Made by a program: the position numbers and the translations under genes. Source: Candidatus Omnitrophota bacterium (lineage in GTDB: Bacteria; Omnitrophota; Gorgyraeia; Duberdicusellales; 4484-171). From it: 64,000 nt of DNA. Within the stretch, counting starts at the first letter, position 1, and the number at the start of each line of letters is the position of its first letter. The DNA lies in contig JBAWWL010000001.1 of the NCBI GenBank assembly GCA_037146775.1, positions 261,464 to 325,463 on the forward strand, written 5' to 3'. The notes under the pieces were generated by a model, which saw only the letters and a program-made list of their open reading frames with translations, was not told the origin of the DNA and ran no database searches. Positions 24,082 through 58,833 of this stretch are shown here, piece after piece.

Positions 24082-24082
24082 T

Positions 24083-43898: not shown

Positions 43899-44783
43899 AT
43901 GGATGCACATATTTTTAAAACAATAGCCATCCAAGCGCTTGAATTGGTAACGCATCTTTGTTTTCCGGCTATCGTTTTTACGATTAGCTCTCGAATTACG
44001 CTGCGCGACGTTCTGGGTGAGCTTAAGCGTCCGGTACTTCTTGTAAAGATTTTACTTGTGGGGTGCGTGTTTGTCCCGTTGGTTACCGCCGGAGTGTTAA
44101 GACTTTTTAACCTTCCCCGCATTGTGGCCGCAATTATTCTTGTAGCGTCGATAGCCCCCGGAGATTCTTTTGCACTCCTTGAGGTCAAAGACAAGAAGGG
44201 GCGCGTAACTCTTGCAGCCGTTATTATGGCCTGGCTTTGTCTTGCTATGCCATTTACGGTACCGGCCTGGACAAAAATCTTTGGCCAATGGTTTAACCTC
44301 AAACTTATGGTTTCGCCCCTGGAAGTGTTTAAGACTATTGCGCCGCTCACTTTGCTTCCATTGTTTGCGGGAATTTTTATCCGCCATTTTTACCCTCTTT
44401 TATCGCAGAGATTAGAGCGCATTGTGGCAGTTTTTGCTAAATGTTCAATTGCTATAGCAGCAGTTGTCGGTCTTTTGCTAAGTCTCAAGGCTTTTCACCA
44501 TTACACAATTTCAGCTATGGGCGCCATAGGTATCGTAGTTACGTGTGCGCTTGTGTTAGGGTACTATAGTGGTTGTGGTGACCGTCGGGATCGTATCAGT
44601 ATGGCCTTGAGCGCGTCGTTAGGCAATTTTGCCGTCATCTTGCTTATCGCGCATTTGAATTATCCTCATGCGCACGTTGCTGGCGCGGCTTTAGCTTTTA
44701 TTCTTATACGCTGGCTTGTTATTATGTTTTGGTATATTGTTATGAGGGTAAGGCTACGCTTAAAAGGCGAAATATTTGGATGA
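43899..44783 (+). CDS. Bile acid:sodium symporter (BASS) family transporter-like membrane protein
   Basis: It is 294 aa and polytopic with BASS-like helices. The call is moderate. Confidence 0.5.
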   Translation: MDAHIFKTIAIQALELVTHLCFPAIVFTISSRITLRDVLGELKRPVLLVKILLVGCVFVPLVTAGVLRLFNLPRIVAAIILVASIAPGDSFALLEVKDKKGRVTLAAVIMAWLCLAMPFTVPAWTKIFGQWFNLKLMVSPLEVFKTIAPLTLLPLFAGIFIRHFYPLLSQRLERIVAVFAKCSIAIAAVVGLLLSLKAFHHYTISAMGAIGIVVTCALVLGYYSGCGDRRDRISMALSASLGNFAVILLIAHLNYPHAHVAGAALAFILIRWLVIMFWYIVMRVRLRLKGEIFG

Positions 44784-45000
44784 TGTAGCTTGACCGTGGA
44801 TTCACGAGATATGTTTGATATCCCTAAATATTTTAGTATCGAAACATACGTTGTAAGAGCGATCTGTACGATAACGTTTGTGTAAATTATATATAAAACT
44901 GATATAATGGAAAAGATTAGAATTTCTAAATGGCACTTCATGGTGCTGGGTTTCTTGTCGAAGTAAATTTTGCAAAGATAATGTTGTTTGGTGGTATAAA

Positions 45001-45804
45001 GTGTTAAAAGAAACTTTAAGAAGGATAAAAAGGGTAATAATGAGAGTGGGGCGCGTAGCAAGGATTATGTTTTGTCACGCTGCGCTTAAGGTCAAGACAT
45101 TATATTGGAAATTTACCGTAAAAAGAATTACAAATATTGAGTTATTCGAAGCAAAAATATTCTCTCAATTTGGTGTCGACGGTATTTTGGCCGGCATTTT
45201 TTCTAAGATCGGTACTACCAATAAATTCTTTGTTGAGTTTGGTGTGTGGGATGGTAACGAATGTAATACGCGATATCTGTCTGAATTTTGCGGATGGAAA
45301 GGCCTTATGATGGATTCCGTAAAACAAAAAAAACCCAACATTAAACAAGAATTCATTACTGCCGAAAATATCAATCAGTTGTTCCATAAATACAGAGTTA
45401 ATTTTGAATTCGATCTTTTATCAATCGATATAGACGGCAATGATTATTGGGTTTGGAAGGCGCTTGATAACCGCTATCGCCCACGAGTGGTTATTATTGA
45501 ATATAATGCTAAGTATGGTCCGGATGAAAGTGTAGCCATAAGTTACGATCCGAACTTTAAATGGGATTACACTGATTATTGCGGAGCAAGCCTTTTAGCA
45601 TTTGTTGGGTTAGCAAGCGTAAAGGGTTATACCTTGGTGGGTTGCGACAGTAAAGGAAACGACGCTATCTTTGTTAATAATATTGATACAAAGAAATATT
45701 TTTATCCTCAAAGCATAGAAAAACTATATAGGTCTCCCACGTACGGGAGCCCTAAATACAATTATTTTTATCCCCGTAGCGACAAGGCTATGGTGCGGGT
45801 GTAG
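45001..45804 (+). CDS. Hypothetical protein, divergent FkbM-like methyltransferase-fold paralog (pairs with the gene at 47446-48243)
   Basis: It shares blocks with the ORF at 47446 (SQFGVDGIL/SQNGEDGVI; FVEFGVWDG/FVDVGAWDG; LLSIDIDGNDYWVWKAL/LLNIDIDSYDWWVWKTL). The start codon is uncertain. Confidence 0.5.
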   Translation: MLKETLRRIKRVIMRVGRVARIMFCHAALKVKTLYWKFTVKRITNIELFEAKIFSQFGVDGILAGIFSKIGTTNKFFVEFGVWDGNECNTRYLSEFCGWKGLMMDSVKQKKPNIKQEFITAENINQLFHKYRVNFEFDLLSIDIDGNDYWVWKALDNRYRPRVVIIEYNAKYGPDESVAISYDPNFKWDYTDYCGASLLAFVGLASVKGYTLVGCDSKGNDAIFVNNIDTKKYFYPQSIEKLYRSPTYGSPKYNYFYPRSDKAMVRV

Positions 45805-46292
45805 ATTTTTATTTCCTGGAATTAGCCATGATTTCTCTGATATAAAGAAAGTAAGCAGTAATGCCGCAGTATGCATCCCAGAAGAAGATAGATCTCTCTG
45901 TTATGATTCAGAAATAAGGTATTATTATTCCGCTTTATTTTCATGGTAAATACATTTAACGTAAATGCGGGAATGCGGGAACTATGGGGTTCGTCTATTT
46001 TAATATGAAAGTTTTTACGTTTCCTTAGAAAATATGCGGGAAGATGGATCTTTGTGTCAGCGGGACGGAATCGCTTATATAGCTTTGTTCGCGGTTCTCG
46101 GTAAAAAAGTTGGGATCTATCTTGATCCGCCGGGTGCTTGTCTTAAAAGGCGGCAGATATTGTTTCATAGGCCCTATGTGCTTACAAAAAATAGCAACTG
46201 ATATTTTGAGGATGGGCTATTTATGTTTATTACGGCACGAGTATTAAAAAACATTCAGAAGCTAAAAAATACGATAGGGGGAATTTTATTTT

Positions 46293-47195
46293 TTGTCCCT
46301 AATCGACTGGCCAAGAATAGAGTATGTTTCCGTATTTTTAATTACCTCTATGAGCGGGCCCCCGTACCGCGTGGCTTGTGCGGTAGCCGGACATATCAAA
46401 ATCCCGGATAGGGACTCATTTTGGCGGATTCGGCTTATCAACGGAAAAGAAGTGACAACTAAGATTTACAGGGGTAAACCTTATACGTGGCAGTCTGCGC
46501 TGGCTTACAAATGGCATGTACCCAGCATTAATGCTTTAGAGCGAATTATAAATGAATACTATAATTGTTCGGTTCCTTATGTTGATATTGGCGCCAATGT
46601 GGGGTTGCGTTCGTTGCTTTACCTTTCATCCGGCCGTCCTGTTTTTATGATTGAGCCCAACGTCGAGCTTAATATCTTGAATGAAGAGCGCTGCAACATG
46701 AACAAATTCATGAATTATCAAATCTTTAATATATGTTTATCAAACATAAACGGTGAAGCGCCATTTTATTACGACGCTAGTTCTTATGAGAGTGGATTGC
46801 GCAAAGAGCTTATCCGTCCGGATAAGATGATTAAATCGGAAACAGTTAAGCTTAGCACGCTTGATGTATTCACGAATAAATATCTGCCAAAATGTTCAAA
46901 CGCAATTATTAAGATTGATGTGGAAGGGCATGAGTTTGAAGTAATTAAAGGCGGGTATGATTTTATATCTAACGTAAACCCTACCATGCTTGTGGAAATC
47001 AACGAAAAAGGTCAACATATAGCAGAGATTATTAGTTTTATGAAGAAGCTGAGGTATTCCGTATATGAAGTAAGGGAGAGGCAAAAAGTAAGATATTATA
47101 AATTACATGATGGCATGACGGAAAACTATGTATTTAGGGAGGATGACTATTTATTTACAAAAGAGGAAAGATTGGAAAAGCTTCTTTTGGGTTAA
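46293..47195 (+). CDS. FkbM family methyltransferase
   Basis: It carries VDIGANVGL...IKIDVEGHEFEVIKGG. Confidence 0.7.
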   Translation: MSLIDWPRIEYVSVFLITSMSGPPYRVACAVAGHIKIPDRDSFWRIRLINGKEVTTKIYRGKPYTWQSALAYKWHVPSINALERIINEYYNCSVPYVDIGANVGLRSLLYLSSGRPVFMIEPNVELNILNEERCNMNKFMNYQIFNICLSNINGEAPFYYDASSYESGLRKELIRPDKMIKSETVKLSTLDVFTNKYLPKCSNAIIKIDVEGHEFEVIKGGYDFISNVNPTMLVEINEKGQHIAEIISFMKKLRYSVYEVRERQKVRYYKLHDGMTENYVFREDDYLFTKEERLEKLLLG

Positions 47196-47445
47196 TACGC
47201 AATATTCCGAAAAATAAAAGAAAAAATTGTTAAGAATTATTTCCTAGTAAGATATTTTGCCCAAGAGTTTTTCTGGGATATGGTGATAAAGATAAGAGCG
47301 AGCCATTATTTTTCTTATTTTTATCTCTGGGTCTATCATGAATTTTCTTGCGGCGTTATCGGGTTTTCAAGTATTGTGATAAAAGGTTATATCGAAGTGG
47401 TTCAAGAATTAATTCCGAGAATGATCGTAACCTAGAAAGAGCGTT

Positions 47446-48243
47446 ATGAGAACTTTGCTTAAATATAGAAAAAATTATTATAGTCAAAACGGAGAAGATG
47501 GGGTAATCCGAGAAATATTAAAGCGATTAGATATTAAGGATAGTTGGTTTGTAGATGTCGGTGCCTGGGACGGCAGGTATCTTAGCAATACTTTTCTTTT
47601 ACTCCAAAAAGGTTGGAAAGGTGTAGACATTGAGGCAGATAATACTTCGTACAACGATTTGCTAAAAACAGCCAATAAATTTCCCGCAAGGTTATTTGCC
47701 ATTTTTGCCAAGGTGACTGTTGAGGGTGATGATTGCCTGGACTCGTTGTTGTCTCGCACGCAAATCCCGAAAGAATTCGGACTTTTAAATATCGATATCG
47801 ATTCTTATGATTGGTGGGTATGGAAGACTTTGAATAACTATTATCCAAAAATTGTTATTATCGAGATTAACAGCTCTTTTTCTCCGGGTATAAAACATGT
47901 TCAACCTGCCAATGTGGTTGGGCTAGAGACCACAATCTTCGGAGCTAGCTTCACGTCTACCCTATCTTTAGGTGAAGAGAAGGGGTATCGGTTAGTTTGT
48001 CATACAGGCAATATGATTTTTGTGAGAAAAGATATTGTTGGAAGAATTAATTTACCGGCTGAGGAATTAAATTTTCCTCACTCGTTATTCATCACTAACT
48101 GGCTTGTGAACAAAAAGGAAAGCAAAATCATTTTTATAATAAAGTTACCTATGCGCAAGATAATGAGATTATTAAGGAGAAAATTTCCTAATATAGATAA
48201 AAATCTAAGAGAATTGAAAAGAATTATCGTGAGGCATTACTAG
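47446..48243 (+). CDS. Hypothetical protein, divergent FkbM-like paralog of the gene at 45001-45804
   Basis: See the evidence for the gene at 45001. Confidence 0.55.
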   Translation: MRTLLKYRKNYYSQNGEDGVIREILKRLDIKDSWFVDVGAWDGRYLSNTFLLLQKGWKGVDIEADNTSYNDLLKTANKFPARLFAIFAKVTVEGDDCLDSLLSRTQIPKEFGLLNIDIDSYDWWVWKTLNNYYPKIVIIEINSSFSPGIKHVQPANVVGLETTIFGASFTSTLSLGEEKGYRLVCHTGNMIFVRKDIVGRINLPAEELNFPHSLFITNWLVNKKESKIIFIIKLPMRKIMRLLRRKFPNIDKNLRELKRIIVRHY

Positions 48244-48374
48244 GATAAAGATATGAAAAAATCCATCATTACATTTGACTAGCTTTTAGTTGTTGCGATT
48301 GAGATATAACCATGGGATTATTGAGAAGAACGAATAATTATTAAGGACTAGATTAATTTAGGGGGTGGTTTAAC

Positions 48375-49952
48375 GTGCTAGATCCAGCGAAAAAAAGATA
48401 CCGATTAAGAATCATAGACCCAGCCTATCCGGCATTCAATATCTATTCGAATAGCGCTGGCCGGACAACAGCGCTGGGGCCTGTCTGTGTGGCTACCGCT
48501 GTTAATGAGATGGAAGGATGGGATGTTGAGGTTATTGATGAAAATAATCTCCGTCTCTACGGTCCCAAGGCCAATACAAGAGGCGCTGATCACGAATTTC
48601 TACAACAATTGAGACCAGCGGATGTTGTCGGATTGTATGGTGGATTAACCAGCACTATTCCTAGACTTTATGAGATAGCGCGTTTTTACAAAGAGAGAGA
48701 TATCGTGACTATCGCCGGTGGCCAGCATTTCTTAAGTGAGAACGTAGAAGAGGCGCTTTTGTCCGGGATTGACTATGTGGTGATCGGCGAGGGGGAGGAG
48801 ACTATTAAGGAACTCCTGTGGGCATTAATGGGAAGAATGGATATCGATGAGGTAAGGGGGGTTGCATATATGAGAGGCAAGGTGGTTACGCGAACCCCGG
48901 CGCGAGAACCGATAACCGATTTTGACAAATTGCCCCTACCCGATTTTTCGTTAGTGCGCTATGCCAAAATTATTGTTTACCCCGTTGAAAGGATACGGGG
49001 GTGCGGTATGGATTGCGAGTTCTGCACCGTTAAGGGCAGGCCGCGATATGCATCTCCCGAACGGTTGCTTGAACGTATCAGTTTTCTTCTTGAAACAAAA
49101 GACGCCAGGACGTTCTTTATTGTAGATGATCTTTTTGGCCAGCAGCGGGATGAAACCATAAGGTTTTGCCATATGCTTGAAGAGTATCAAAGAAATACGG
49201 GTAGACGGCTGGATTTAGGTGTTCAGATACGATTGGATAAGGCGAATGACTTAGAACTTCTCACAGTGATGCGGCAGGCGAATATTAATTTTGTTGCCAT
49301 CGGACTTGAATCTCCCATTGAAGAAGAATTGAAAGCGATGAATAAACATCTGAGGCCTGAAGACATGTTAGCGCTCATGGGGATATTTCGTAAATTTGGA
49401 TTTTTAGTGCATGGTATGTTTATCTTCGGTTATCCTATGAAAGAAGGCGTAAGTTTTAAAATGTCTGCAAAGGAGCGGGTAAAACGTTTTAGGAATTTCA
49501 TAAGAAAATCCAAACTCGACACTATTCAGGTCGTATTACCGGTCCCCTTGCCAGGAACGGAATTAAAGAGGAGACTCGAGAAACAAAACAGGATTTATTC
49601 ACGTAACGATATCGGTTGGGAGTATTATGACGGTAATTTTTCGCTGTTTCAACCCGATGAGCCCATGAGCGCCGAAGAGATGCAAGCTTCCACAAAGAAA
49701 ATTATGGGAAAATTTTACCATTTTAAATACATGTTTATGGTCGTTCTTAATATTTTTTCATTTCCTTATTTACTATTCTTTTTGCATAACATTGAGTTCG
49801 GATGGAAAAGGTGGTATAGGGATTGGCGTAATTATCTCATTCGCTTTGGCGGTTGGATGACTATAAAAAAGTGGATGGCAGCGTTTAGAAAAGATGATTT
49901 TTTGGGTAAGTTACGGCAGGCAAAAGAACACATAAAAAATAAACATAATTAA
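48375..49952 (+). CDS. B12-binding domain radical SAM protein (class B)
   Basis: An N-terminal B12-binding-like domain is followed by CxxxCxxC (CGMDCEFC). The GTG start has a GGGGGTGG Shine-Dalgarno. Confidence 0.8.
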   Translation: MLDPAKKRYRLRIIDPAYPAFNIYSNSAGRTTALGPVCVATAVNEMEGWDVEVIDENNLRLYGPKANTRGADHEFLQQLRPADVVGLYGGLTSTIPRLYEIARFYKERDIVTIAGGQHFLSENVEEALLSGIDYVVIGEGEETIKELLWALMGRMDIDEVRGVAYMRGKVVTRTPAREPITDFDKLPLPDFSLVRYAKIIVYPVERIRGCGMDCEFCTVKGRPRYASPERLLERISFLLETKDARTFFIVDDLFGQQRDETIRFCHMLEEYQRNTGRRLDLGVQIRLDKANDLELLTVMRQANINFVAIGLESPIEEELKAMNKHLRPEDMLALMGIFRKFGFLVHGMFIFGYPMKEGVSFKMSAKERVKRFRNFIRKSKLDTIQVVLPVPLPGTELKRRLEKQNRIYSRNDIGWEYYDGNFSLFQPDEPMSAEEMQASTKKIMGKFYHFKYMFMVVLNIFSFPYLLFFLHNIEFGWKRWYRDWRNYLIRFGGWMTIKKWMAAFRKDDFLGKLRQAKEHIKNKHN

Positions 49953-50137
49953 TTGTAGTAGAAAAGCATACACTAAGATCTCTAACTAACATTAGCACGT
50001 GAGTTGCAAATTTATTTTAAAATTTTTAAGCGCTTTGCGTGGGTGTGATTATTGGTTAATTTGTGTGGAGTTGATAGCGTATAATATAAGGTAACCGTAG
50101 GTAAACGGAATCGCACGATAGTGACGAGAGGTGTGCT

Positions 50138-50680
50138 ATGAAGCGAATTTTTAAGATAAATCAAGTTGCTGATATTCCTTGTAAATATCAAAAAACCCCA
50201 ATAGGTTTGTTGCTGGAATATCATAACCTTGGGCGCAAATTTGAACAATATACCCAAGCGCAGCTGTTGATAGGCATGTGCATGGATAATCGAAAACATC
50301 TTCATATACCTGACAATTTTGCATTCATCATCCGGTCAGGTGGCGCTAACTTGCGGTATAGCGAGTTTAAAGTGTCTTATGCTATCGCCGTGGGAGGAGT
50401 TTTGTATATTGTTCTAATCGGGCATAATCAGTGCGGTATGGTCAATCTTGCTGCCAGGAAAGAGCAGTTTATTAAAGGACTTGTTAAAAACGCAGGATGG
50501 CGGAAGAAAGATGCGGCAGAACATTTCGAAAATTATGCGATGATGTTTGAAATTGGGAACGAAGTCGATTTTATTTTAAGTGAGGCAAAAAGATTACAAG
50601 CTAGGTATCCAAAAGTTTCCGTGGCGCCCATGCTTTATCAGGTCCAAGATAACCGGCTATACTTGCTTAATGAGGATTAA
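50138..50680 (+). CDS. Beta-class carbonic anhydrase-like protein
   Basis: The Zn-ligand motifs are present: CMDNR (CxDxR) and HNQCG (HxxC). Confidence 0.5.
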   Translation: MKRIFKINQVADIPCKYQKTPIGLLLEYHNLGRKFEQYTQAQLLIGMCMDNRKHLHIPDNFAFIIRSGGANLRYSEFKVSYAIAVGGVLYIVLIGHNQCGMVNLAARKEQFIKGLVKNAGWRKKDAAEHFENYAMMFEIGNEVDFILSEAKRLQARYPKVSVAPMLYQVQDNRLYLLNED

Positions 50681-50995
50681 TAATAGTTTGCGGGTATTCG
50701 GTTAAGCTGTATATAACAGATTTTTGTACAAATCGAGTTAACTTATGAAGAATCAAGAAGTTACAAACAAAAAAGTATTCTTCTGCACCTTCGGATGGCA
50801 GACGGATGTACTATAGACGGACTACGGAGAAGCTAGCTTAAACTATCCTAACAGTGGAATAACCAATGAGTTATGAAAATTAGTTAACAAGCGAACCGAA
50901 CGTAAGTAAAAAATTCGTTTGGAAGCAGCTAGATTAAGCAAAAAAGGAAGGATGGATTTGAAACTAAAAAAGCAATCAACGAATATTCTAAGATA

Positions 50996-51808
50996 ATGCA
51001 CCATCTTTATTCATTGATTAGGCGCGTATTATTTAAGATTCGAAGATATCCGGTAATGCGGCAGATAAGGGCAGGCAAAAAAATAATCATATTTAATCTG
51101 TACCGTTACTGTAATTTTAATATACCATCGGAAACATTAAATGCTTTTGAACATTTTACATTGTTAGATAATGATATGATTAGGGAAATGAAGTCTTTTT
51201 TAAAATTATCTAAGAATAAGGTTTGTTTTTTAGATGTTGGTTCTTTGTATGGAATATTTTCACTTGCCTTTACAAGCCGTAACCCTCGTGGAATAGCGTA
51301 TTCTATTGAGCCGTCACCCGAACCATTTAGGATCCTCAATCTTTGTCAGCAAAACAATCCAGATTTAAATATAAAATCATTTCAAATTGCATTGGGCGCT
51401 GATGAAGAAGAGATAAGAATGAAGTATGAATGGCAGCATTTGGTGGCTTTAGGTATCGACGAAACGAATAGTAACTATCTAAAAATAAAAACTACGACAC
51501 TAGATAATTTTATCAAGCAATATCGAATCTTTCCAGATATTATTAAAATCGACGTGGAAGGTTATGAATACCATGTTTTGGCAGGAGGGAAACGATTTTT
51601 GAAAGAACAAAGCCCAATTATTTGCCTAGAAGTACATATCCCATGGCTAGAAAGGCTTAGGGTTTCTATTGAGAAACTGCAGGAAGCAATAGTATCTTTG
51701 GATTATAAAGTCTATGATTTAGATCATAAATTAATTAAAAGTTTAATACTATTTTCTAAAAATAAAACTAATTTTAGAATAGTTTGTAGCAAATTACCAT
51801 TAAGGTAA
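50996..51808 (+). CDS. FkbM family methyltransferase
   Basis: It carries FLDVGSLYGIF...IKIDVEGYEYHVLAGG. Confidence 0.75.
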   Translation: MHHLYSLIRRVLFKIRRYPVMRQIRAGKKIIIFNLYRYCNFNIPSETLNAFEHFTLLDNDMIREMKSFLKLSKNKVCFLDVGSLYGIFSLAFTSRNPRGIAYSIEPSPEPFRILNLCQQNNPDLNIKSFQIALGADEEEIRMKYEWQHLVALGIDETNSNYLKIKTTTLDNFIKQYRIFPDIIKIDVEGYEYHVLAGGKRFLKEQSPIICLEVHIPWLERLRVSIEKLQEAIVSLDYKVYDLDHKLIKSLILFSKNKTNFRIVCSKLPLR

Positions 51809-52008
51809 CATTAAAGATGAGATTAGGGCAACATATAAATAGACTATTGTAATAATTATCATTGGGCTGTATTATTCGTATATTGTGTATGGAGAAACTC
51901 TGCGGTATGTGTTTTTTGTATGTTGGGCATGATTTAGCTTATCGTGTGTTTTTATCTAGTATCGTATCGTGATACGAAAAATGCCGTATCCAAATCTTTG
52001 AATAAACA

Positions 52009-53748
52009 ATGGGAAAAATTAAGGCTGGCATAATAAGAGAATGTAACCGCCCCGCATTGCAGTTAGCTACGGTTTTTGTGATTGTTTTGTCTACCCACCT
52101 TATCTTTGTCTTTATGGTTGGCGATTATGGATGGGATGATGGAGCTATTACGCTTGCATTTTCAAGGACTCTGGCTTATAGCTCGAAAATAGCGCTTACC
52201 CCTGTTTCGGAAGTGGTTGAGGGATTCTCTACTCCGGCCTGGATGGTGATTTTTTCATTGATAGCAAAAATATTTAGACCTTCTTTCAGCGTTTTTATCA
52301 GGTCTTCCCAGATCGTTGCGGGAGTTTGTGCTTCGATAGGCGCCTGTTTGTTTTGTCGTTTATCTGCCAAGATAATCCCTCGCGCCGCAGCTGTTTTAGC
52401 ATCGATCTTGCTATTTTGCTCGTCCTCTTTTATTAACGAAACCGCTAATGGCATGGAAAATTCATTGGGGGTAATGTTAGTTCTTTTTATAGCCACGCTC
52501 ATAGATAGGGGTAAAGATAAAAAGCCTGCGATGTTGATTAACATTGCTCTTTTCCTTCTGTCATTCATTCTTGTCACGGTGAGATTTGAATTTGCCTTCT
52601 ATCAGATTATAGCTTCTTTATTTCTAATGTCTGGATTTTCCTGCCAAGCTTTATGGATGACAACGGGATCCTTGAGTGGATTTGTATTGTTAACTCTAGT
52701 AAGAATAAATATTTTTGGTACATATTTGCCAAATACAATATGGGCTAAGTGTCAACCGCCCTACAGCTATTATCGTGGAGGCGCGGTGTTGCACTGGTAT
52801 TATTTTTTAAAAGACAGATATAATGGGTGTATGCAGATGTTCAGCCCGTTTAAGTTCTTATGGTTATCATTTATTCCTTTGTTCTTCTTAACGAGAATGC
52901 TGGGCAGGATATTGGTACCCAAGAAGTTTATCTTAACCCTGTCAGCCTTGGAACGTTATGCTATCGGATATTGCGTCGCGGTTTTAATCTTTTCGACAGT
53001 CATTGGTAAGTCTTGGAGCTATGATGCGAGACTACAACTCTCCGCGCTTCCGCTTTTATTTTATTTACTTCTTTCGATATCTTCCCGAGTCTTTCTAATT
53101 CCAAAGAAGTTGCTTTCTGCTTGTTTTATCTACGCAATGATAATATGCATTGCCGATTCAATAAACAAGTACCCACCATCTGGGGGTATGATGAATTTTA
53201 AAACAGTACATGCGTCTAACGCCGCGATAGGGTGGCGGAGCGTCACTCCTGCAAATTTTAAAATTACCGGAAATGCGGTTGAACATCTTCGGAGAGCCCT
53301 GGGGCTTGAAACGATTTCTTTCCTTGTTCCGGACATAGGAGGCTTGGCGTTGGGACACGAAAGAGTCAGAGTCTTAGATTCCGCATTGTTGGCAAATGCC
53401 TTCTTGGCAAAGTATGGATATAAAGAATTTGCTCATTACATTGAAGCACAGAAACCAGACGTCATCGTAACGCATAGCATATGGTCGGAAGTTTCTGGAA
53501 TTTATAAGTCTCAGTTCTTCAAAAGTAGCTATATTCCGATAGTCATCGACGACAACTGGGTATATGTTCGGCAGGACCACGTTGATTTTTTGAGCTCTAA
53601 AAACTTTCTTAGTCCCTTGCCCATAAATAGCTTTCAGCCTTTGCTCAGGTATAGAGGTTTTATGATCGACGAAATGTTCGTCAATTCTCAGGGTTTCAGC
53701 CCAAATGTAAAACAACTCAAGGAAGAACCCCATGAGCCCAATCATTAA
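52009..53748 (+). CDS. Large polytopic membrane protein, GT-C-fold glycosyltransferase-like
   Basis: It is 579 aa. An acidic DYGWDDG motif sits after TM1, as in the gene at 24083. Many transmembrane helices are followed by a soluble C-terminus. Confidence 0.45.
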   Translation: MGKIKAGIIRECNRPALQLATVFVIVLSTHLIFVFMVGDYGWDDGAITLAFSRTLAYSSKIALTPVSEVVEGFSTPAWMVIFSLIAKIFRPSFSVFIRSSQIVAGVCASIGACLFCRLSAKIIPRAAAVLASILLFCSSSFINETANGMENSLGVMLVLFIATLIDRGKDKKPAMLINIALFLLSFILVTVRFEFAFYQIIASLFLMSGFSCQALWMTTGSLSGFVLLTLVRINIFGTYLPNTIWAKCQPPYSYYRGGAVLHWYYFLKDRYNGCMQMFSPFKFLWLSFIPLFFLTRMLGRILVPKKFILTLSALERYAIGYCVAVLIFSTVIGKSWSYDARLQLSALPLLFYLLLSISSRVFLIPKKLLSACFIYAMIICIADSINKYPPSGGMMNFKTVHASNAAIGWRSVTPANFKITGNAVEHLRRALGLETISFLVPDIGGLALGHERVRVLDSALLANAFLAKYGYKEFAHYIEAQKPDVIVTHSIWSEVSGIYKSQFFKSSYIPIVIDDNWVYVRQDHVDFLSSKNFLSPLPINSFQPLLRYRGFMIDEMFVNSQGFSPNVKQLKEEPHEPNH

Positions 53749-53848
53749 GCGTAACAATTAAAAGCGATGAGAACAAAATGCTGATTGAGCGAAAATCTAA
53801 GGTTTACGGCAATCCCCGAAAGTGTTCCCGCACATGCATTTATGGCTG

Positions 53849-53900
53849 ACCGTTGGCGCAAGTATTGTGGGATGACTTTGGGTATTTTAAAGAAGCCCAC
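53849..53900 (+). repeat. Degenerate copy of the TTGGCG(T/C)AAGT...GATGA(T/C)TTT element
   Basis: TGACCGTTGGCGCAAGTATTGTGGGATGACTTTGGGTATTTTAAAGAAG aligns with the 5' half of the 58706 and 60482 elements. Confidence 0.4.
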
Positions 53901-54017
53901 TGATTGTGGTAATGGAGTTGTAGATGAAGCATCATGATTGTAACTCTTGAAATTATAGCTGATATCTTCTTGGCAGATACCAACTATTAGATTATATGGA
54001 GGTAGCCTTTGAATAGG

Positions 54018-54523
54018 ATGAAGGCAGGGATAAAGAGATTGTCAGAGAAGACGGCAGTGAGGGGACGCTTTCAAAAAATACCTTTCTTAAAATTGAAAGA
54101 GCTCGATTAGAATTTTGTAATATAAAAGCACATCAAAATGGAACATATTCTGCACAAAAGCAATATATTGTTCAAAGTTTAAGGGAAATGCGCAATATTC
54201 TTAAGGAAAAAAATATAGATTTTATAGTCGGTATTTATCCCGATGAGTTTTAGGTTGACAAAAGTTTATTGGAGCAAATCTATCGAAAATATAACCTCAA
54301 AAGAGAAGAGTACGATATCAATTTAATGCAAAAAATTTTAAAGGATTTTTTGGATGCAGAAGGCATAGCTTATATGGATCTATCGGATGAATTTAGTGCT
54401 GAAGGGCAGAAGGGGTCGCTTTATAAATTAAGAGATACTCATTGGAACGAAGCGGGGAATATTCTGGCTGCCGAGATTATATTTAAATGTTTAGTTAAAA
54501 AGATTAAATTAAATAATGAGTAA
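54018..54523 (+). pseudogene. Disrupted SGNH/GDSL-hydrolase-like gene remnant
   Basis: The downstream 84-aa piece ends with the block V-like DTHWNEAGN (DxxH). An in-frame TAG at 54251 lies just upstream of it. Protein-like coding from 54018 (MKAGIKRLSEK...KNIDFIVGIY) continues in a different frame. No N-terminal GDS block or signal peptide is present. Confidence 0.45.
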
Positions 54524-54677
54524 AAATTTTTGTTAAGACTTTCAACCAACCCTTTAACTTGAGGACACTATCGCTGAAAAAACGGGATGGATCGAACAAT
54601 AAAAAAAGCAATGAAAACTCCTTCAAAATGTATGGTGTTTTCCTGGGTAATGAGTATATTCTGGACAGAATTTTGAT

Positions 54678-55457
54678 ATGTTAAAGAATCTTGATATAGA
54701 TTTCATTTTAGAATTATATAGGAAATATAGTAAGGATTTGAAAAGAGTCAGGAAGCAGCAATTGGCTTTTTATCGAAATGATATTATATATAGCGAGGCA
54801 AAACGTATTTTTGCAAAATACTTGAGGCATCTGGGCATAAGAATTTCTGATTCAGCCAGGCTAAGCCCGCACTTTGATGATATCGAGGCAGAAATAACCT
54901 ATCTTTTGGTTAGAGAAAGCCGGCCGGAAACAATAGTTGAATTCTCGCCATGCGGCGGATGGTCAACAGCATGGATATTGCACGCTTTAAAAGATAATAA
55001 GTTCGGAAAGCTATATTCTTATGACATGATAGATGCATCACGAAAAACAGTCCCTCATTATTTATCTAGAAATCGATGGTCATTCATTCTCGGAGACATA
55101 AAGAATAATATCGACAAGTTACCTGCAAAAATAGACTATCTTTTTATAGACTCGGATCACTCTAAAGAATTCGCGCAGTGGTACATACAGCATATATTTC
55201 CTATGATAAAAAATAATATACCCGTAAGCGTCGATGATGTATTCCATACCAGCGATCCTTCGGAATTTTGTGGGGAGGGAGGGGTGATTGTGGACTGGCT
55301 AGAGCGTAAAAAGATTAATTATGTAACAGCTTCTCCTGCAAAGGCAATCGATAATTTTAATCGTATTGTGCAGCAAAAAAATGAATTAGGTATCAGTGCG
55401 TTGATACATACTTCGATAAACAATGCTGCTATATTTTTTCATTTTAAAACAGAGTAG
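54678..55457 (+). CDS. Methyltransferase-like protein (TylF/MycF-type O-methyltransferase fold)
   Basis: It carries ETIVEFSPCGGWSTAWIL...LFIDSDHS, as seen in Methyltransf_24/TylF-like proteins. Confidence 0.45.
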   Translation: MLKNLDIDFILELYRKYSKDLKRVRKQQLAFYRNDIIYSEAKRIFAKYLRHLGIRISDSARLSPHFDDIEAEITYLLVRESRPETIVEFSPCGGWSTAWILHALKDNKFGKLYSYDMIDASRKTVPHYLSRNRWSFILGDIKNNIDKLPAKIDYLFIDSDHSKEFAQWYIQHIFPMIKNNIPVSVDDVFHTSDPSEFCGEGGVIVDWLERKKINYVTASPAKAIDNFNRIVQQKNELGISALIHTSINNAAIFFHFKTE

Positions 55458-55476
55458 GTACGATAGGTAACATTAT

Positions 55477-56280
55477 ATGAACATAAGAGAATTACAAAAG
55501 AATTGGAATGAACTCGGCATAATAGATCCATTATGGGCGATCCTTTCTTATCCCGACAAGAAAGGAGGAAAATGGAATGCAGAAGAGTTCTTTAAATCTG
55601 GTGTCAGGGAAATATCAGAGGTTATGGATTATCTGAAAAAGATTAATATTACATATACTAACAGGAAAGCTCTTGATTTCGGATGTGGCGTGGGCCGTTT
55701 AACGCAGGCACTCGCCCCTTACTTCGATGAGATATACGGTATTGATATTTCTCCTTCAATGATTAAACTTGCAAAGAATTTTAACCGATATCCTGGTACA
55801 TGCCAGTATATTCTAAATGAATGCGATCATTTGCGGATATTACCGGACAATAGCATCGATTTTATTTATACCAACATCGTGTTCCAGCATATTGAACCCA
55901 TCTATACAAAAAGATATATAAAAGAATTTTTACGCATAATGGCGCCCGGCGCCTTAGCGACATTTCAATTAATAACTAAGCAAATTGGAAACATACATCA
56001 CAAAACAGCATTCGCAAAATTTAGAAGTTTTTTCAAGAAAGTAACTCCAAACTTTTTATTAAGATTGTATCGTAGGGTATCCAACCAGCCAGAATGTGGA
56101 GGTGGTGTGTGTGGTCAACCTATTATTGAAATGCACTGTATTAGCGAGAGTGAGATGGTAGATTTGATTCGTAATTGTGGCGGGAAAGTGCTCGATATTG
56201 TTCATAACGATGCAGCCGGTCCAGATTTCGATAGCATCCGGTGTTGCATGACAAAAAATACGGTAACCGAGAAATTCTGA
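55477..56280 (+). CDS. Class I SAM-dependent methyltransferase
   Basis: Motif I is present (ALDFGCGVGRLT) with the post-I acidic residue (GIDIS). Confidence 0.75.
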   Translation: MNIRELQKNWNELGIIDPLWAILSYPDKKGGKWNAEEFFKSGVREISEVMDYLKKINITYTNRKALDFGCGVGRLTQALAPYFDEIYGIDISPSMIKLAKNFNRYPGTCQYILNECDHLRILPDNSIDFIYTNIVFQHIEPIYTKRYIKEFLRIMAPGALATFQLITKQIGNIHHKTAFAKFRSFFKKVTPNFLLRLYRRVSNQPECGGGVCGQPIIEMHCISESEMVDLIRNCGGKVLDIVHNDAAGPDFDSIRCCMTKNTVTEKF

Positions 56281-56312
56281 AACCAGTAGGAAAGGTAATA
56301 GGCCAGAATATA

Positions 56313-56855
56313 ATGAATAGAGAAGGTTTGTTGTGTTGGGAGGACATTAAGACAAGGCAATCGATCTATCTTAATTTAGGTGGTAATGGGAATTGCCATC
56401 CGCACAAAGGTTATGAAAATTATATAGCCGTAGACATTCAACCATCGACCATGGGTTGGCATATAGAACACGATTTACGAAAACCCATTCCTTTACCAAA
56501 CGATTGTGTGGATCGGATTCTTTCCGAAGATTTTCTTGAGCATGTTACAGCAGAAGAAATGAAAAAAATTATTTGTGAATCTTTCCGTCTGCTTAAGGCG
56601 GGTGGTGTTATGAGGATTGGTGTGCCTGATTATAATAACCCCAAAGATAAACCATATCTTCAACAAGGAAAAGACCCGCGGTATCCAGAACATATTACCT
56701 TAACTTACTATGATCTTATGAAAAAAATAATAGGTGAGACGCCATTCATGCGCTATAAGTTCCGACATTATTGGGATAAGGATAAATTTATATGCGAAAA
56801 GATCGATTATACTTATGGAATGGTAAAAAGAACCAGCGATAACGATTTGAGCTGA
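56313..56855 (+). CDS. Class I SAM-dependent methyltransferase (small, Methyltransf_11-like)
   Basis: It carries LKAGGVMRIGVPD. I chose the ATG at 56313 rather than the track start at 56241, which overlaps the upstream gene. Confidence 0.55.
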   Translation: MNREGLLCWEDIKTRQSIYLNLGGNGNCHPHKGYENYIAVDIQPSTMGWHIEHDLRKPIPLPNDCVDRILSEDFLEHVTAEEMKKIICESFRLLKAGGVMRIGVPDYNNPKDKPYLQQGKDPRYPEHITLTYYDLMKKIIGETPFMRYKFRHYWDKDKFICEKIDYTYGMVKRTSDNDLS

Positions 56856-57338
56856 GAAGGGTTGGGATTGTCGAGCATATAACGGGCATGTTTAAGGATT
56901 TAATGTTTATATTATCTCGAAGATCAAAATGTACTTGGCGCAAGCTACAAACTCGAGAGGGGCATCCTTTGCATGTAACTAGTTTAGTGGTGGATTTATA
57001 TAAAGATTAACGAAAGGCATAAGCAGGCGCCAATGCTTAAGTGTCGCCTGCTTTATGGGTAGCTTCATGAAAAAAAGTCTTCATTAAGACCTTCGGCTGA
57101 CCTTATCTTCAGGTTCTACAATAATGAGACTTAGGCACGATTTATCGGGGCTGTAGTCGAATTATCCCCGAACGAAGTGAGTGGGGTACCTAATTTTCTT
57201 CAAGGAAATGATACGTTCGACAGGCTCAGTATTCCTTCAATAGGCTCAGGATGCTGAGCAGAGTCGAAGCACACCCTGAGCGAAGCCGAAGGGCGACTAA
57301 CCCATATTGATTCCTGTCTCTTCGGAAGCTCATCGAGC

Positions 57339-57364
57339 GGGCGGCTTTGCCCCGCCCTTTTATT
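57339..57364 (+). terminator. Rho-independent terminator inside the long noncoding gap
   Basis: A GGGCGG-ctttgcc-CCGCCC hairpin is followed by TTTTATT. Confidence 0.5.
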
Positions 57365-57511
57365 AAGAGGAGCTTGCGACCCCCTACCCTTCCAATAGAG
57401 CTTTCTGCGAGCTTTTACGCAGCAAAAAAGCCAAGTTTCATTAGCGGCGGCGGAAGTGACTATGTTAACCAACATGCCTATTAACTCTATAACATGTTGG
57501 GTAATTTCTTC

Positions 57512-57540
57512 TTGACAGCCGTTACCCAACAGGATATATT
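57512..57540 (+). promoter_or_regulatory. Sigma70-like promoter (TTGACA-17 nt-TATATT) for the gene at 57574
   Basis: The -35 element is an exact consensus, the spacer is 17 nt and the -10 is TATATT. An AGGAGG Shine-Dalgarno lies 7 nt before the ATG at 57574. Confidence 0.45.
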
Positions 57541-57573
57541 GTAGTATGGTTTGTTAGGTAACAGGAGGGACTT

Positions 57574-57894
57574 ATGAGAGGAGTGATAAAAGGGGCATTA
57601 GCAGAGGAGCTTCAGAATTCCCTTAGGATGAAGCGAGAATACGAAGAAGCCTTAAAAAAATTGCCTAAGGGGTGTCTTGCAGTAAGAAAGATAAGGGGTC
57701 ACAAGTATTACTATCTCGTTAAAAGAGAAGACCGCAAGGTTAAATACATTTATAAAGGAAAAATTTCTGAAGAAGAGAAAAATAAGTATGAAAAGACCAA
57801 GGTGTTACGCGCTAAATATCGCAAACTACTAGCGCAAGTTAAAAGGCAAGTTAGATTTTTAAGGAGTTCTTTACGTGGAAAAGAAGTAGTATGA
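57574..57894 (+). CDS. Small basic hypothetical protein (106 aa)
   Basis: It has strong promoter and Shine-Dalgarno signals and is Lys/Arg-rich with a coiled-coil-like region. I do not recognise the family. Confidence 0.5.
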   Translation: MRGVIKGALAEELQNSLRMKREYEEALKKLPKGCLAVRKIRGHKYYYLVKREDRKVKYIYKGKISEEEKNKYEKTKVLRAKYRKLLAQVKRQVRFLRSSLRGKEVV

Positions 57895-57956
57895 TTTATG
57901 TTTTGAGATTTTAAGGCGGTTCCATAAAGAAAAAATTTTAGATAATCTTATTCTGA

Positions 57957-58806: not shown

Positions 58807-58833
58807 GGGCTTTTTGTAAAAAAAGAGAAAATA

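What the first reader, a model, noticed from the sequence alone, without database searches (positions are those of the whole stretch)
44784..57573. AT-richer accessory island devoted to glycan methylation and modification
The stretch from about 44.8 to 57.6 kb differs from the rest of the window. Its intergenic spacers are long (130-490 bp) and AT-rich, and its codon composition is visibly lower in GC. It contains a gene remnant and is bounded on the right by a 720-bp noncoding gap.

Its gene content is two FkbM methyltransferases, a divergent FkbM-like paralog pair, a class-B (B12) radical SAM enzyme, three class-I SAM methyltransferases, a GT-C-like membrane protein and a beta-carbonic-anhydrase-like protein. 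Together with the two FkbM genes at 27.9-29.6 kb, the window encodes at least nine methyltransferase-fold proteins and four radical SAM enzymes. Two of the latter are B12-dependent and are candidates for C-methylation of sugars. This points to an unusually heavily methylated surface glycan whose modification module looks horizontally acquired.
Basis: partly seen in the sequence, partly recalled or inferred. Interest (0 to 1): 0.6.

Follow-up and report, generated by a model that had tools for sequence, protein, structure and literature searches.

The report
Patchwork methyltransferase region around a core gene
This AT-richer, gene-sparse stretch of an Omnitrophota chromosome is real, but it is a patchwork of accessory sugar-modifying genes gathered around an ancient, phylum-wide conserved radical SAM gene, not one imported glycan-methylation island, so it is a fairly ordinary variable surface-glycan region.

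Summary
The region 44.8-57.6 kb is the lowest-GC stretch of the window (38.0% against 42.1%). Per-gene GC, GC3 and codon usage differ significantly from the rest. Spacers are long, only 73% is coding, and there is an AlgX-type pseudogene and a 718-bp gap. Segmentation puts the right border near 58.9 kb. The stated gene content is confirmed, and the membrane protein is an AftB-like GT-C glycosyltransferase.

The host is a Candidatus Omnitrophota MAG. The B12 radical SAM gene (48375-49952) is not accessory: more than 120 protein clusters are 72-89% identical, and every named one is from Omnitrophota. In 85 related loci it sits among unrelated housekeeping genes. None of the methyltransferase or GT-C genes occurs there; the beta-CA-like gene occurs once. 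There is no integrase, tRNA, flanking repeat or transposase.

The other genes have only distant relatives (38-63% identity) in scattered phyla, and the 47446 family is common on viral contigs. The best reading is a variable zone where glycan O-methyltransferases and a GT-C accumulated piecemeal around backbone genes. Horizontal origin is plausible but unproven, because no closely related genome was available.

The parts
44701..58900 (.). Low-GC, gene-sparse segment (GC 0.377). This is the objective extent of the compositional anomaly.
   Evidence: Maximum-likelihood segmentation and block-shuffle control; per-gene statistics.
45001..45804 (+). FkbM-related methyltransferase-like protein, paralog A (267 aa, GC 0.373).
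   Evidence: Sub-threshold PF05050 hit at E=0.0055. It is 32% identical to 47446, E=7e-24. Family profile against the window's FkbM profile: hhalign 92.6%.
46293..47195 (+). FkbM-family SAM methyltransferase (300 aa).
   Evidence: PF05050 at 56 bits and TIGR01444 at 68.7 bits, both above cut-off; weak RfbT match.
47446..48243 (+). FkbM-related methyltransferase-like protein, paralog B (265 aa, GC 0.360). It belongs to a promiscuous family that is also common on viral contigs.
   Evidence: 1538 homologs; nearest non-self is 63% identical; named hits are cyanobacteria and Anaerolineales. 24 of 42 members hit PF05050. At least 267 relatives in IMG/VR.
48375..49952 (+). Class-B (B12-binding) radical SAM protein, 525 aa, with CxxxCxxC at residue 210 and a hydrophobic C-terminal helix. 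It is a backbone gene conserved across Omnitrophota, not part of the accessory set.
   Evidence: PF02310 and PF04055. More than 120 clusters at 72-89% identity, all named ones Omnitrophota. 85 related loci lack the other island genes. Motif position.
50138..50680 (+). Short beta-carbonic-anhydrase-like zinc protein (180 aa) with C48-x-D50-x-R52 and H96-x-x-C99. It may be a backbone partner of the radical SAM gene.
   Evidence: PF00484 at 28.0 bits against a 25.7 cut-off. Aligns to Rv3588c GHDSCG. A 62% homolog lies 38 bp downstream of the radical SAM ortholog in L158 only. Motif positions.
50996..51808 (+). FkbM-family methyltransferase (270 aa), the most AT-rich gene of the region (GC 0.317, GC3 0.273).
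   Evidence: PF05050 at 64.5 bits and TIGR01444 at 89 bits. The best of 1.84 billion cluster representatives is only 47% identical.
52009..53748 (+). AftB-like GT-C membrane glycosyltransferase (579 aa) with an invariant W42-D43-D44-G45 motif after the first transmembrane helix.
   Evidence: No Pfam match. AlphaFold2 pLDDT 90.3, pTM 0.91. Foldseek PDB top hit is AftB 9dlf, E=6e-7, TM 0.54, followed by STT3, ALG9, AftA, ArnT and Emb. Invariant columns. The closest homolog sits in a DPA-pathway operon.
54017..54520 (+). Pseudogene remnant of an AlgX/AlgJ-type SGNH O-acetyltransferase. It has an in-frame stop at 54251-54253 and lacks the C-terminal half of the domain.
   Evidence: PF16822 at E=3e-6 for 54269-54523 alone and E=2e-8 for the joined piece, profile positions 23-133 of 268.
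54678..56855 (+). Compact three-gene methyltransferase unit: Methyltransf_24 (54678-55457), Methyltransf_11 (55477-56280) and a Methyltransf_11-like gene (56241-56855).
   Evidence: Pfam hits. A 19-bp spacer and a 40-bp overlap.
56856..57573 (.). 718-bp non-coding gap (GC 0.447) with a terminator-like hairpin at 57339-57357 and an 11/12 sigma-70-like promoter at 57512-57540.
   Evidence: No Rfam match and no Pfam match on its ORF fragments. Folding is not unusual, z=-1.4.
57574..58520 (+). Two-gene accessory pair: a 106-aa DUF6788-like protein and a 187-aa NTP_transf_8 nucleotidyltransferase-fold protein (GC 0.368 and 0.333). It lies inside the low-GC segment.
   Evidence: PF12281 at E=5e-16. 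Weak precomputed DUF6788 hit. Segmentation.

Best explanation
The region is a variable, AT-richer zone of an Omnitrophota chromosome. Accessory genes for modifying an envelope glycan have accumulated piecemeal on both sides of older backbone genes. It is not a single imported island.

Backbone: the B12 radical SAM gene at 48375, and possibly the beta-CA-like gene just downstream of it.

Accessory set:
- Four FkbM-family methyltransferases (45001, 46293, 47446, 50996).
- A compact three-gene class-I methyltransferase unit (54678-56855).
- An AftB-like GT-C glycosyltransferase (52009).
- A decayed AlgX-type O-acetyltransferase remnant.
- A small nucleotidyltransferase pair at the right edge.

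Inferred mechanism:
- The soluble SAM methyltransferases O-methylate sugar hydroxyls of a nucleotide- or lipid-linked glycan intermediate in the cytoplasm.
- The GT-C adds a sugar from a polyprenyl-phosphate donor on the outer face of the inner membrane. The donor may be an arabinofuranose-type pentose.
- Most genes stand alone behind long AT-rich spacers and are probably transcribed individually.

Shown here: the composition, the families, the fold, the conservation pattern and the lack of mobility signatures. Inferred: the substrates, the glycan target and a foreign origin for the accessory genes.
For: - Composition and architecture differ significantly from the rest of the window.
- The radical SAM protein has more than 120 clusters at 72-89% identity, and all named ones are Omnitrophota.
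- In six contigs carrying close orthologs and 80 metagenome loci, 837 kb in all, the ortholog is present. No homolog of 45001, 46293, 47446, 50996, 52009, 54678, 55477 or 56241 is found. The beta-CA-like gene occurs once.
- In L093 the ortholog lies directly between the ortholog of the window's beta-CASP gene (66% identical) and an SBF-type transporter. In L091 an esterase precedes it. These gene families flank the island on the left in the window, so the gene belongs to the old neighbourhood.
- In the closest relative, L092 (89% amino-acid and 85% nucleotide identity), DNA homology stops 58 bp before and 18 bp after the gene.
- The accessory genes have only distant relatives. The GT-C reaches 38% at best, with named hits in Mycobacterium, Bradyrhizobium, Azospirillum and Caulobacteraceae. 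For 47446 the best is 63%, with named hits in cyanobacteria and Anaerolineales and at least 267 viral-contig relatives. For 50996 the best is 47%.
- The GT-C fold and the acidic motif in the first outer loop are confirmed.
- The closest GT-C homolog is embedded in an operon with decaprenyl-phosphate phosphoribosyltransferase, a HAD phosphatase, a DprE2-like reductase and DprE1. Other homologs lie in polysaccharide clusters or next to Wzy_C.
- A truncated pseudogene sits directly upstream of the three-methyltransferase unit, which is consistent with gene turnover.
- A 2026 preprint reports that hypervariable loci of Omnitrophota chromosomes commonly carry LPS and capsule glycosyltransferase and polysaccharide cassettes (10.64898/2026.06.07.730766).
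Against: - No genome closer than 89% radical SAM identity with usable flanks was available. The three other assemblies that carry the region are 100% identical to the window. Presence or absence of the accessory genes among close relatives is therefore unknown.
- Gene order around the radical SAM gene is poorly conserved across the phylum in general. SBF, esterase and HisF are also almost never its neighbours. Absence of the methyltransferases next to it shows they are not coupled to it, but does not show that they are recent arrivals.
- No donor lineage was identified, and there is no integrase, tRNA, transposase or flanking repeat.
- The GC difference is moderate, about 4 points or 1-1.5 sd per gene. 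A few genes outside the region are as AT-rich, for example 13672 and 33600.
- No sugar-nucleotide or DPA-pathway gene lies in the window, so the glycan target and donor are inferred by family analogy only.
Confidence: 0.6

Rival explanations
1. The whole stretch 44.8-57.6 kb is one horizontally acquired island devoted to glycan methylation, and the B12 radical SAM enzyme serves as a sugar C-methylase within it.
For: Low GC, distinct codon usage, long spacers and a pseudogene. The region is dense in methyltransferases and carries a GT-C.
Against: - The radical SAM gene is conserved at 72-89% identity across Omnitrophota and has genome-typical GC of 0.428.
- It is never linked to the other island genes in 85 related loci.
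- It keeps old neighbours, the beta-CASP gene, an SBF-type transporter and an esterase, in L093 and L091.
- There are no integrase, tRNA or direct-repeat borders.
- The island FkbM genes are only 19-32% identical to each other. Nearest outside relatives range from 38% to 63% identity. Neither points to joint arrival from one donor.
Confidence: 0.1
2. The region is native and vertically inherited. It is a lineage-specific envelope-modification cluster whose low GC and long spacers reflect weak expression and relaxed selection or AT-biased mutation, with no horizontal transfer.
For: - No mobility genes or insertion scars are present.
- GC1 and GC2 are lowered as well as GC3.
- No donor was found: nearest homologs are 63% identical or less.
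- Backbone genes are interleaved with the accessory ones.
- Gene order is fluid across the phylum.
Against: - Named homologs of the GT-C and of 47446 lie in unrelated phyla, and the window's own protein is the only Omnitrophota entry. All named radical SAM homologs are Omnitrophota.
- The 47446 family is abundant on viral contigs.
- The backbone gene embedded in the region keeps normal GC, which argues against a purely regional mutational effect.
Confidence: 0.22
3. The methyltransferases, the radical SAM enzyme and the beta-CA-like protein form a lipid or small-molecule (natural-product) tailoring cluster, not a glycan-modification set.
For: FkbM is named after a macrolide O-methyltransferase. 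The best, sub-threshold radical SAM matches are BchE, HpnJ, HpnR and lipid B12 radical SAM models. No sugar-nucleotide gene lies in the island.
Against: - There is no core biosynthetic gene such as a PKS, NRPS, terpene or RiPP precursor gene.
- The only transferase with a resolved fold is a GT-C glycosyltransferase, and its homologs lie in polysaccharide or DPA loci.
- A remnant of a polysaccharide O-acetyltransferase is present.
- The radical SAM gene is not linked to the others in relatives.
Confidence: 0.08

Closest known systems
Variable surface-polysaccharide (O-antigen or capsule) modification regions, and the hypervariable loci described for Omnitrophota chromosomes
   Same: Lower GC than the surrounding chromosome. 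Glycosyltransferase and sugar-tailoring genes, pseudogene remnants and patchy distribution of the gene families. The preprint 10.64898/2026.06.07.730766 lists LPS, capsule and polysaccharide cassettes among hypervariable-locus cargo.
   Different: There are no recombinases, IS elements or restriction-modification genes here. The region is dominated by methyltransferases, with no sugar-nucleotide synthesis, flippase or polymerase genes. A phylum-core gene sits in the middle. Variability among strains could not be shown.
FkbM-family sugar O-methyltransferases, such as Vibrio cholerae RfbT, which methylates the terminal O-antigen sugar
   Same: 46293 and 50996 pass the PF05050 and TIGR01444 cut-offs, and 46293 also has a weak RfbT-model match. 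They are stand-alone genes near glycan genes.
   Different: The substrate is unknown. 45001 and 47446 belong to a divergent branch that falls below the Pfam threshold when scored singly.
Mycobacterial arabinofuranosyltransferase AftB and other GT-C enzymes (AftA, EmbA/B/C, ArnT)
   Same: The protein has a GT-C fold, and AftB is the best PDB match at E=6e-7, TM 0.54. An acidic DD motif follows the first transmembrane helix. The nearest homolog sits in an operon with DprE1, a DprE2-like reductase and a phosphoribosyltransferase.
   Different: It shares only about 15% sequence identity with AftB and has no Pfam family. No DPA-pathway gene lies in this window. The host is an Omnitrophota bacterium, not an actinobacterium. 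Donor and acceptor are untested.
Class-B (cobalamin-dependent) radical SAM methylases, such as HpnR, HpnP, GenK/Fom3-type enzymes and BchE-like enzymes
   Same: An N-terminal B12-binding domain, a radical SAM core and a CxxxCxxC motif at residue 210.
   Different: It scores far below every curated equivalog cut-off; the best is BchE at 97 bits against 481. It forms its own ortholog group across the phylum. It is a co-directional neighbour of a DEAD-box helicase in 19 of 86 loci and is not found in glycan clusters.

Membership tests
Horizontally acquired genomic island (classical sense) | Composition and codon usage atypical of the host sequence | tested here: met
   GC 0.380 against 0.421. Per-gene GC p=2e-4. 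RSCU distance beyond 2000 random gene sets. Segmentation LLR beyond 200 block shuffles. Only the 64-kb window served as reference.
Horizontally acquired genomic island (classical sense) | Mobility or insertion signatures: integrase or transposase, a tRNA target, flanking direct repeats | tested here: not met
   No tRNA or tmRNA. No flanking repeats above chance length. No integrase or transposase Pfam hit among island ORFs.
Horizontally acquired genomic island (classical sense) | The whole block is absent from, or variable among, related genomes | tested here: inconclusive
   The accessory genes are absent from 85 loci centred on the radical SAM ortholog, but synteny there is poor in general. 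The only genomes sharing the flanks are 100% identical copies. Scans of the GTDB species-representative genomes found no syntenic relative.
Horizontally acquired genomic island (classical sense) | All member genes are accessory cargo | tested here: not met
   The B12 radical SAM gene is conserved at 72-89% identity across Omnitrophota and retains old neighbours in L093 and L091.
FkbM methyltransferase family (PF05050 / TIGR01444) | Score above the curated cut-off of the family model | tested here: met
   46293 scores 56.3 and 68.7 bits; 50996 scores 64.5 and 89 bits. 45001 reaches only 17.3 bits against a 22.7 cut-off, and 47446 has no hit. Their family matches at profile level, hhalign 92.6% and 24 of 42 members with PF05050, so they are related but not members at threshold.
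FkbM methyltransferase family (PF05050 / TIGR01444) | SAM-dependent O-methylation of a sugar or other hydroxyl | not testable with these tools
   This requires an enzyme assay or glycan analysis.
Class-B (B12-dependent) radical SAM enzymes | N-terminal cobalamin-binding domain, radical SAM core and CxxxCxxC cluster motif | tested here: met
   PF02310 at 47 bits and PF04055 at 43.9 bits, both above cut-off. CGMDCEFC at residues 210-217.
   By genomic context only. Orthologs in 85 loci are not in glycan clusters and are never beside the island's methyltransferases or GT-C. The recurrent neighbour is a DEAD-box helicase. Enzymology was not tested.
GT-C fold glycosyltransferases | Multi-helix membrane domain plus a soluble C-terminal domain that superposes on solved GT-C enzymes | tested here: met
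   AlphaFold2 pLDDT 90.3. 17 PDB matches at E<=1e-3, all GT-C enzymes: AftB, STT3, ALG9, AftA, ALG12, ArnT, EmbB, AglB and the DPY19 C-mannosyltransferase.
GT-C fold glycosyltransferases | Conserved acidic residue(s) in the first extracytoplasmic loop | tested here: met
   W42, D43, D44 and G45 are invariant in 58 homologs, directly after helix 2-40.
GT-C fold glycosyltransferases | Uses a polyprenyl-phosphate-linked sugar donor | not testable with these tools
   There is indirect support only. The closest homolog sits in a DPA-synthesis operon: NF008978 at 256 bits against a 207 cut-off and DprE1 NF053785 at 535 bits against 500.
Beta-class carbonic anhydrase (PF00484) | Family score above cut-off, with the zinc ligands (Cys, His, Cys) and the Asp-Arg dyad | tested here: met
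   28.0 bits against a 25.7 cut-off, but only profile positions 44-100 are matched. C48-x-D50-x-R52 and H96-x-x-C99 are present. Activity is untested.
AlgX/AlgJ-type SGNH O-acetyltransferase (PF16822) | Intact domain | tested here: not met
   Only profile positions 23-133 of 268 are present, and the frame is interrupted by a stop at 54251-54253. It is a remnant.

The most novel reading that the evidence does not exclude
Two leads are not excluded by the evidence.

(a) The B12 radical SAM protein at 48375 defines an uncharacterised ortholog group that is nearly universal in Omnitrophota. In genome L093 it is more conserved (80% identity) than the RNase-J-like beta-CASP gene of the same genome (66%). 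It is a co-directional neighbour of a DEAD-box RNA helicase in 19 of 86 loci, sometimes upstream and sometimes downstream. It may be an RNA- or ribosome-directed cobalamin radical SAM enzyme, not a glycan or lipid methylase.

(b) The Pfam-less AftB-like GT-C family is linked elsewhere to a complete decaprenyl-phospho-arabinose operon. It may mark arabinofuranose-type envelope glycans outside Actinobacteria, including in this Omnitrophota bacterium.
Probability: 0.2. Interest if true: 0.55.

Novelty: new member of a known kind. Interest (0 to 1): 0.3.

Why it matters
Compositional 'islands' read from raw sequence can be mosaics. Here a simple conservation test removes the most striking enzyme, the B12 radical SAM protein, from the proposed glycan-methylation module. 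Sugar C-methylation should therefore not be inferred from it.

What remains is a set of seven methyltransferase-type genes and an AftB-like GT-C. This suggests that this Omnitrophota bacterium decorates an envelope glycan with methyl groups and possibly a lipid-linked pentose. That is relevant to surface variation, phage or host interaction and antigenicity in a phylum with almost no cultured members. The arrangement itself is of a familiar kind.

Two side products may be more useful than the island: a phylum-wide radical SAM family of unknown function, and a Pfam-less GT-C family tied to the DPA pathway.

Tried and rejected
- Synteny in GTDB species-representative genomes. The SBF query found no relative. 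The HisF query found 80 loci at 84% identity or less, in Thermodesulfobacteriota, Nitrospirota and others, with no shared neighbours. The host lineage is apparently absent from that collection, so this route gave nothing.
- Same-species contigs. GCA_964613555.1 and Logan SRR12676968 are 100% identical to the window and carry no independent information.
- RNA genes and elements. There is no tRNA or tmRNA and no Rfam hit in the window or in the 718-bp gap at E<=1. Folding of the gap interior is unremarkable, z=-1.4.
- Repeats. There are no flanking direct or inverted repeats beyond chance-length matches. The large gaps have no copies elsewhere in the window. The spacers carry no phase-variation-type simple repeats or long homopolymers.
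- Pseudogene hunt in the 488-bp and 718-bp gaps. The ORF fragments gave no Pfam hit. Only the AlgX remnant in the 929-bp gap is real.
- Promoter and terminator scan. Counts do not exceed the shuffles, so individual transcription of the genes remains an inference from spacing.
- The idea that the radical SAM protein is the membrane-spanning-lipid synthase Mss or the tetraether synthase Tes. The Tes model is not among its NCBIfam hits. Mss homologs were reported in only 15 of 267 Omnitrophota MAGs (PMC11868695), which does not fit a near-universal gene. This was not tested directly.
- The idea that the PP-loop and HisF genes at 41.5-43.0 kb are WbuX/WbuZ-type glycan amidation genes. HisF passes the true hisF cut-off and the PP-loop protein is TtcA-like, so the flank is housekeeping.
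- Recent duplication as the source of the FkbM genes. Pairwise identities are only 19-32%.

Full report
**Host and layout**

The window is 41.3% GC and all its genes lie on the + strand. NCBI names the proteins identical to those of the window as coming from a 'Candidatus Omnitrophota bacterium' MAG (locus tags WCI77_*, contig up to 398 kb).

Pfam and NCBIfam annotation divides the window into six blocks:

| Coordinates | Content |
|---|---|
| 1-15.6 kb | LPS core/O-antigen-type cluster: two GT9, several GT4, one GT2, Wzy_C, a SPASM radical SAM, a B12 radical SAM, one class-I methyltransferase and one PEMT/ICMT-type methyltransferase |
| 15.9-21.6 kb | Housekeeping: HI0933-like protein, Maf, a cation-efflux (CDF) transporter, MetH |
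| 21.7-31.5 kb | Second envelope cluster: three large membrane proteins, two FkbM, a radical SAM, a methyltransferase |
| 31.7-44.8 kb | Housekeeping: PHO4, PhoU-like, beta-CASP RNase, PilZ, pyruvate kinase, deacetylase, Sir2, TtcA-like PP-loop, true HisF, esterase, SBF transporter |
| 44.8-57.6 kb | The flagged region |
| 57.6-64 kb | A DUF6788/NTP_transf_8 pair, an amidohydrolase, a DUF2779 protein |

The flagged region is therefore separated from the other glycan clusters by 13 kb of housekeeping genes.

**Check of the observation**

- **GC.** The region has GC 0.380 against 0.421 for the rest.
- **Per-gene statistics.** Its ten genes have lower GC (0.379 against 0.422, p=2e-4) and lower GC3 (0.374 against 0.425, p=0.002). 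GC1 and GC2 are lower too.
- **Rank within the window.** It is the lowest-GC 12.8-kb stretch of the window.
- **Codon usage.** Its distance from the rest exceeds that of 2000 random gene sets.
- **Spacers.** The median is 217 bp against 30 bp elsewhere.
- **Coding density.** It is 73% against 98% in the two upstream glycan clusters.
- **Segmentation.** An unbiased scan finds a single low-GC segment at 44,701-58,900. Its LLR is 48 on the fine grid and 46.6 on the coarser control grid. None of 200 shuffles of 1-kb blocks reached 46.6; the maximum was 41.8.

The right border lies about 1.3 kb further right and includes the very AT-rich DUF6788/NTP_transf_8 pair.

The gene remnant is real. Bases 54017-54520 form one frame broken by a stop at 54251-54253. 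The joined piece matches the AlgX SGNH O-acetyltransferase domain at E=2e-8, but only profile positions 23-133 of 268.

The 718-bp gap (56856-57573) has no Pfam or Rfam match. It holds a terminator-like hairpin and a strong promoter-like site in front of the next gene.

The window-wide count of four radical SAM genes and at least nine methyltransferase-fold proteins is met or exceeded.

**What the genes are**

- **46293 and 50996** are FkbM-family methyltransferases above the curated cut-offs.
- **45001 and 47446** are paralogs, 32% identical with E=7e-24.
 - Singly they fall below the FkbM threshold.
 - 24 of 42 members of their family hit PF05050, and the family profile aligns to the window's FkbM profile with 92.6% probability.
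- **The 579-aa membrane protein (52009)** has no Pfam family.
 - An AlphaFold2 model built on 58 homologs is confident (pLDDT 90.3, pTM 0.91).
 - Its best PDB match is the mycobacterial arabinofuranosyltransferase AftB (E=6e-7, TM 0.54). The next matches are STT3, ALG9, AftA, ArnT and Emb.
 - W42-D43-D44-G45, directly after the first transmembrane helix, is invariant in the family.
 - Its closest non-self homolog (38% identity) lies in an operon with a decaprenyl-phosphate phosphoribosyltransferase and DprE1, both above NCBIfam cut-offs. The operon also has a DprE2-like reductase and a HAD phosphatase.
 - Other homologs lie in a polysaccharide cluster and next to a Wzy_C gene.
- **The 180-aa protein at 50138** keeps the beta-carbonic-anhydrase zinc and dyad residues, C48-x-D50-x-R52 and H96-x-x-C99.

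**The key result: the B12 radical SAM gene is not cargo**

The 525-aa protein at 48375 has more than 120 database clusters at 72-89% identity. Every one that carries a name is from Omnitrophota. Its GC of 0.428 is typical of the window.

I collected 85 loci around its orthologs, five by exact look-up and 80 from metagenomes, 837 kb in all. I searched them with all window proteins.

- The ortholog is present in all 85.
- Homologs of the island's FkbM genes, class-I methyltransferases and GT-C are present in none.
- The beta-CA-like gene is present in one locus, L158, at 62% identity and 38 bp downstream of the ortholog.
- In L093 the ortholog (80% identity) lies directly between the ortholog of the window's beta-CASP gene (66% identity) and an SBF-type transporter.
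- In L091 an esterase precedes it and an SBF gene follows a few genes later. The same gene families flank the island on the left in the window.
- In the closest relative found, L092 (89% amino-acid and 85% nucleotide identity), DNA similarity to the window starts 58 bp before the gene and ends 18 bp after it.

The gene therefore belongs to the old chromosomal backbone. The three FkbM-type genes at 45.0-48.2 kb lie between it and its former neighbours.

**Origin of the remaining genes**

Their nearest relatives are distant and taxonomically scattered.

| Gene | Nearest non-self identity | Where relatives are found |
|---|---|---|
| GT-C (52009) | 38% | Named hits in Mycobacterium, Bradyrhizobium, Azospirillum, Caulobacteraceae; three homolog loci examined have 59-69% GC |
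| 47446 | 63% | Named hits in cyanobacteria and Anaerolineales; at least 267 relatives on IMG/VR viral contigs, including giant-virus MAGs |
| FkbM 50996 (GC 0.317) | 47% | Best among 1.84 billion cluster representatives |

This pattern fits transfer-prone accessory genes, but it identifies no donor. There is no tRNA, integrase, transposase or meaningful flanking repeat, and no phase-variation repeats.

The decisive test is presence or absence in close relatives, and it could not be run.
- The GTDB species-representative genome scans returned no syntenic relative.
- The only other assemblies that carry the flanks are 100% identical to the window.
- Gene order around the radical SAM gene is fluid across the phylum. 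Even SBF, esterase and HisF are almost never its neighbours.

**Interpretation**

The best-supported reading is a variable, AT-richer zone in which envelope-glycan tailoring genes accumulated piecemeal around backbone genes.
- The accessory set is four FkbM-type and three class-I methyltransferases, an AftB-like GT-C, a decayed O-acetyltransferase and a small nucleotidyltransferase pair.
- The backbone is the radical SAM gene and perhaps the beta-CA-like gene.
- The inferred mechanism is cytoplasmic O-methylation of sugar hydroxyls, plus periplasmic-face addition of a sugar from a polyprenyl-phosphate donor. This rests on family analogy and on the context of homologs, not on any test of this locus.

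A 2026 preprint on complete Omnitrophota genomes reports that hypervariable loci commonly carry LPS, capsule and polysaccharide genes. That makes this arrangement unsurprising for the phylum.

A purely vertical origin for the remaining genes cannot be excluded.

**Side findings**

- The radical SAM ortholog is a co-directional neighbour of a DEAD-box RNA helicase in 19 of 86 loci. The helicase lies upstream in 12 and downstream in 7. Other neighbours include a beta-CASP RNase (L093) and a cold-shock protein (L089). This hints at an RNA-related role, but it is only a lead.
- A 104-bp direct repeat with one mismatch (58703-58806 and 60489-60592) brackets the amidohydrolase gene. It gives that ORF and the next one the same first 17 codons. 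One short-read contig ends inside the repeat. It could be a shared leader, a recombination scar or an assembly effect.

**Verdict**

The region is a new member of a known kind, a variable glycan-modification region, and is of modest interest.

Noticed in passing
window 48375-49952; loci L089-L173: The B12-binding radical SAM protein forms an ortholog group conserved at 70-89% identity across Omnitrophota. In genome L093 it is more conserved (80%) than the beta-CASP RNase of the same genome (66%). In 19 of 86 loci a DEAD-box RNA helicase is its co-directional neighbour, upstream in 12 and downstream in 7. Its function is unknown, and it scores far below all curated NCBIfam cut-offs.
   Followed up: partly
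window 58703-58806 and 60489-60592: A 104-bp direct repeat with one mismatch brackets the amidohydrolase gene (58756-60456). As a result ORFs 58756 and 60542 begin with the same 17 codons (MAVNNRVGKEGAERKWK). The Logan contig L004 ends inside the first copy. It may be a shared 5' leader, a recombination scar or an assembly ambiguity. The first copy lies at the right end of the low-GC segment.
   Followed up: partly
window 52009-53748; locus L085 1636-8998: The Pfam-less GT-C family (82 homologs, invariant WDDG motif) has a member inside a complete decaprenyl-phospho-arabinose-type operon. That operon has a phosphoribosyltransferase, a HAD phosphatase fused to a flippase-like domain, a DprE2-like SDR and DprE1, in a 59% GC metagenome contig. 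This suggests a family of arabinofuranosyltransferases spread across many phyla.
   Followed up: partly
window 47446-48243 and 45001-45804; loci L174-L253: The divergent FkbM-like family is abundant on IMG/VR viral contigs. There are at least 267 confirmed relatives, up to 52% identical, including giant-virus MAGs and contigs of 100-380 kb.
   Followed up: partly
window 57574-58520: A very AT-rich two-gene pair: a 106-aa DUF6788-like protein and a 187-aa NTP_transf_8 nucleotidyltransferase-fold protein. It sits behind a near-consensus promoter (57512-57540). It looks like a toxin-antitoxin or defence-type accessory module, but has no NCBIfam match.
   Followed up: partly
window 57200-57300: The 718-bp gap contains the stretch 'CTCAGGATGCTGAGCAGAGTCGAAGCACACCCTGAGCGAAGCCGAAGGGCGA'. 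A looser look-alike ('CCCCGAGCAATGTCGAAGGGTC') lies at 58664-58685. They may be copies of a short dispersed intergenic repeat, but no significant second copy was found in the window.
   Followed up: partly
window 11030-12478: The other B12 radical SAM gene lies inside the LPS-type cluster, between glycosyltransferase genes. It is only about 30% identical to the 48375 family. Its best, sub-threshold NCBIfam match is HpnJ (157 bits). Of the two B12 enzymes, this one is the better candidate for a glycan-directed role.
   Followed up: no
window 21694-27936: Three consecutive large membrane proteins of 795, 557 and 727 aa lie here. The first has a weak spermine-synthase-like match and the third a weak PMT_2 (GT-C) match. 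They precede two FkbM genes, a radical SAM gene and a methyltransferase gene, forming a second envelope-modification cluster with normal coding density.
   Followed up: no
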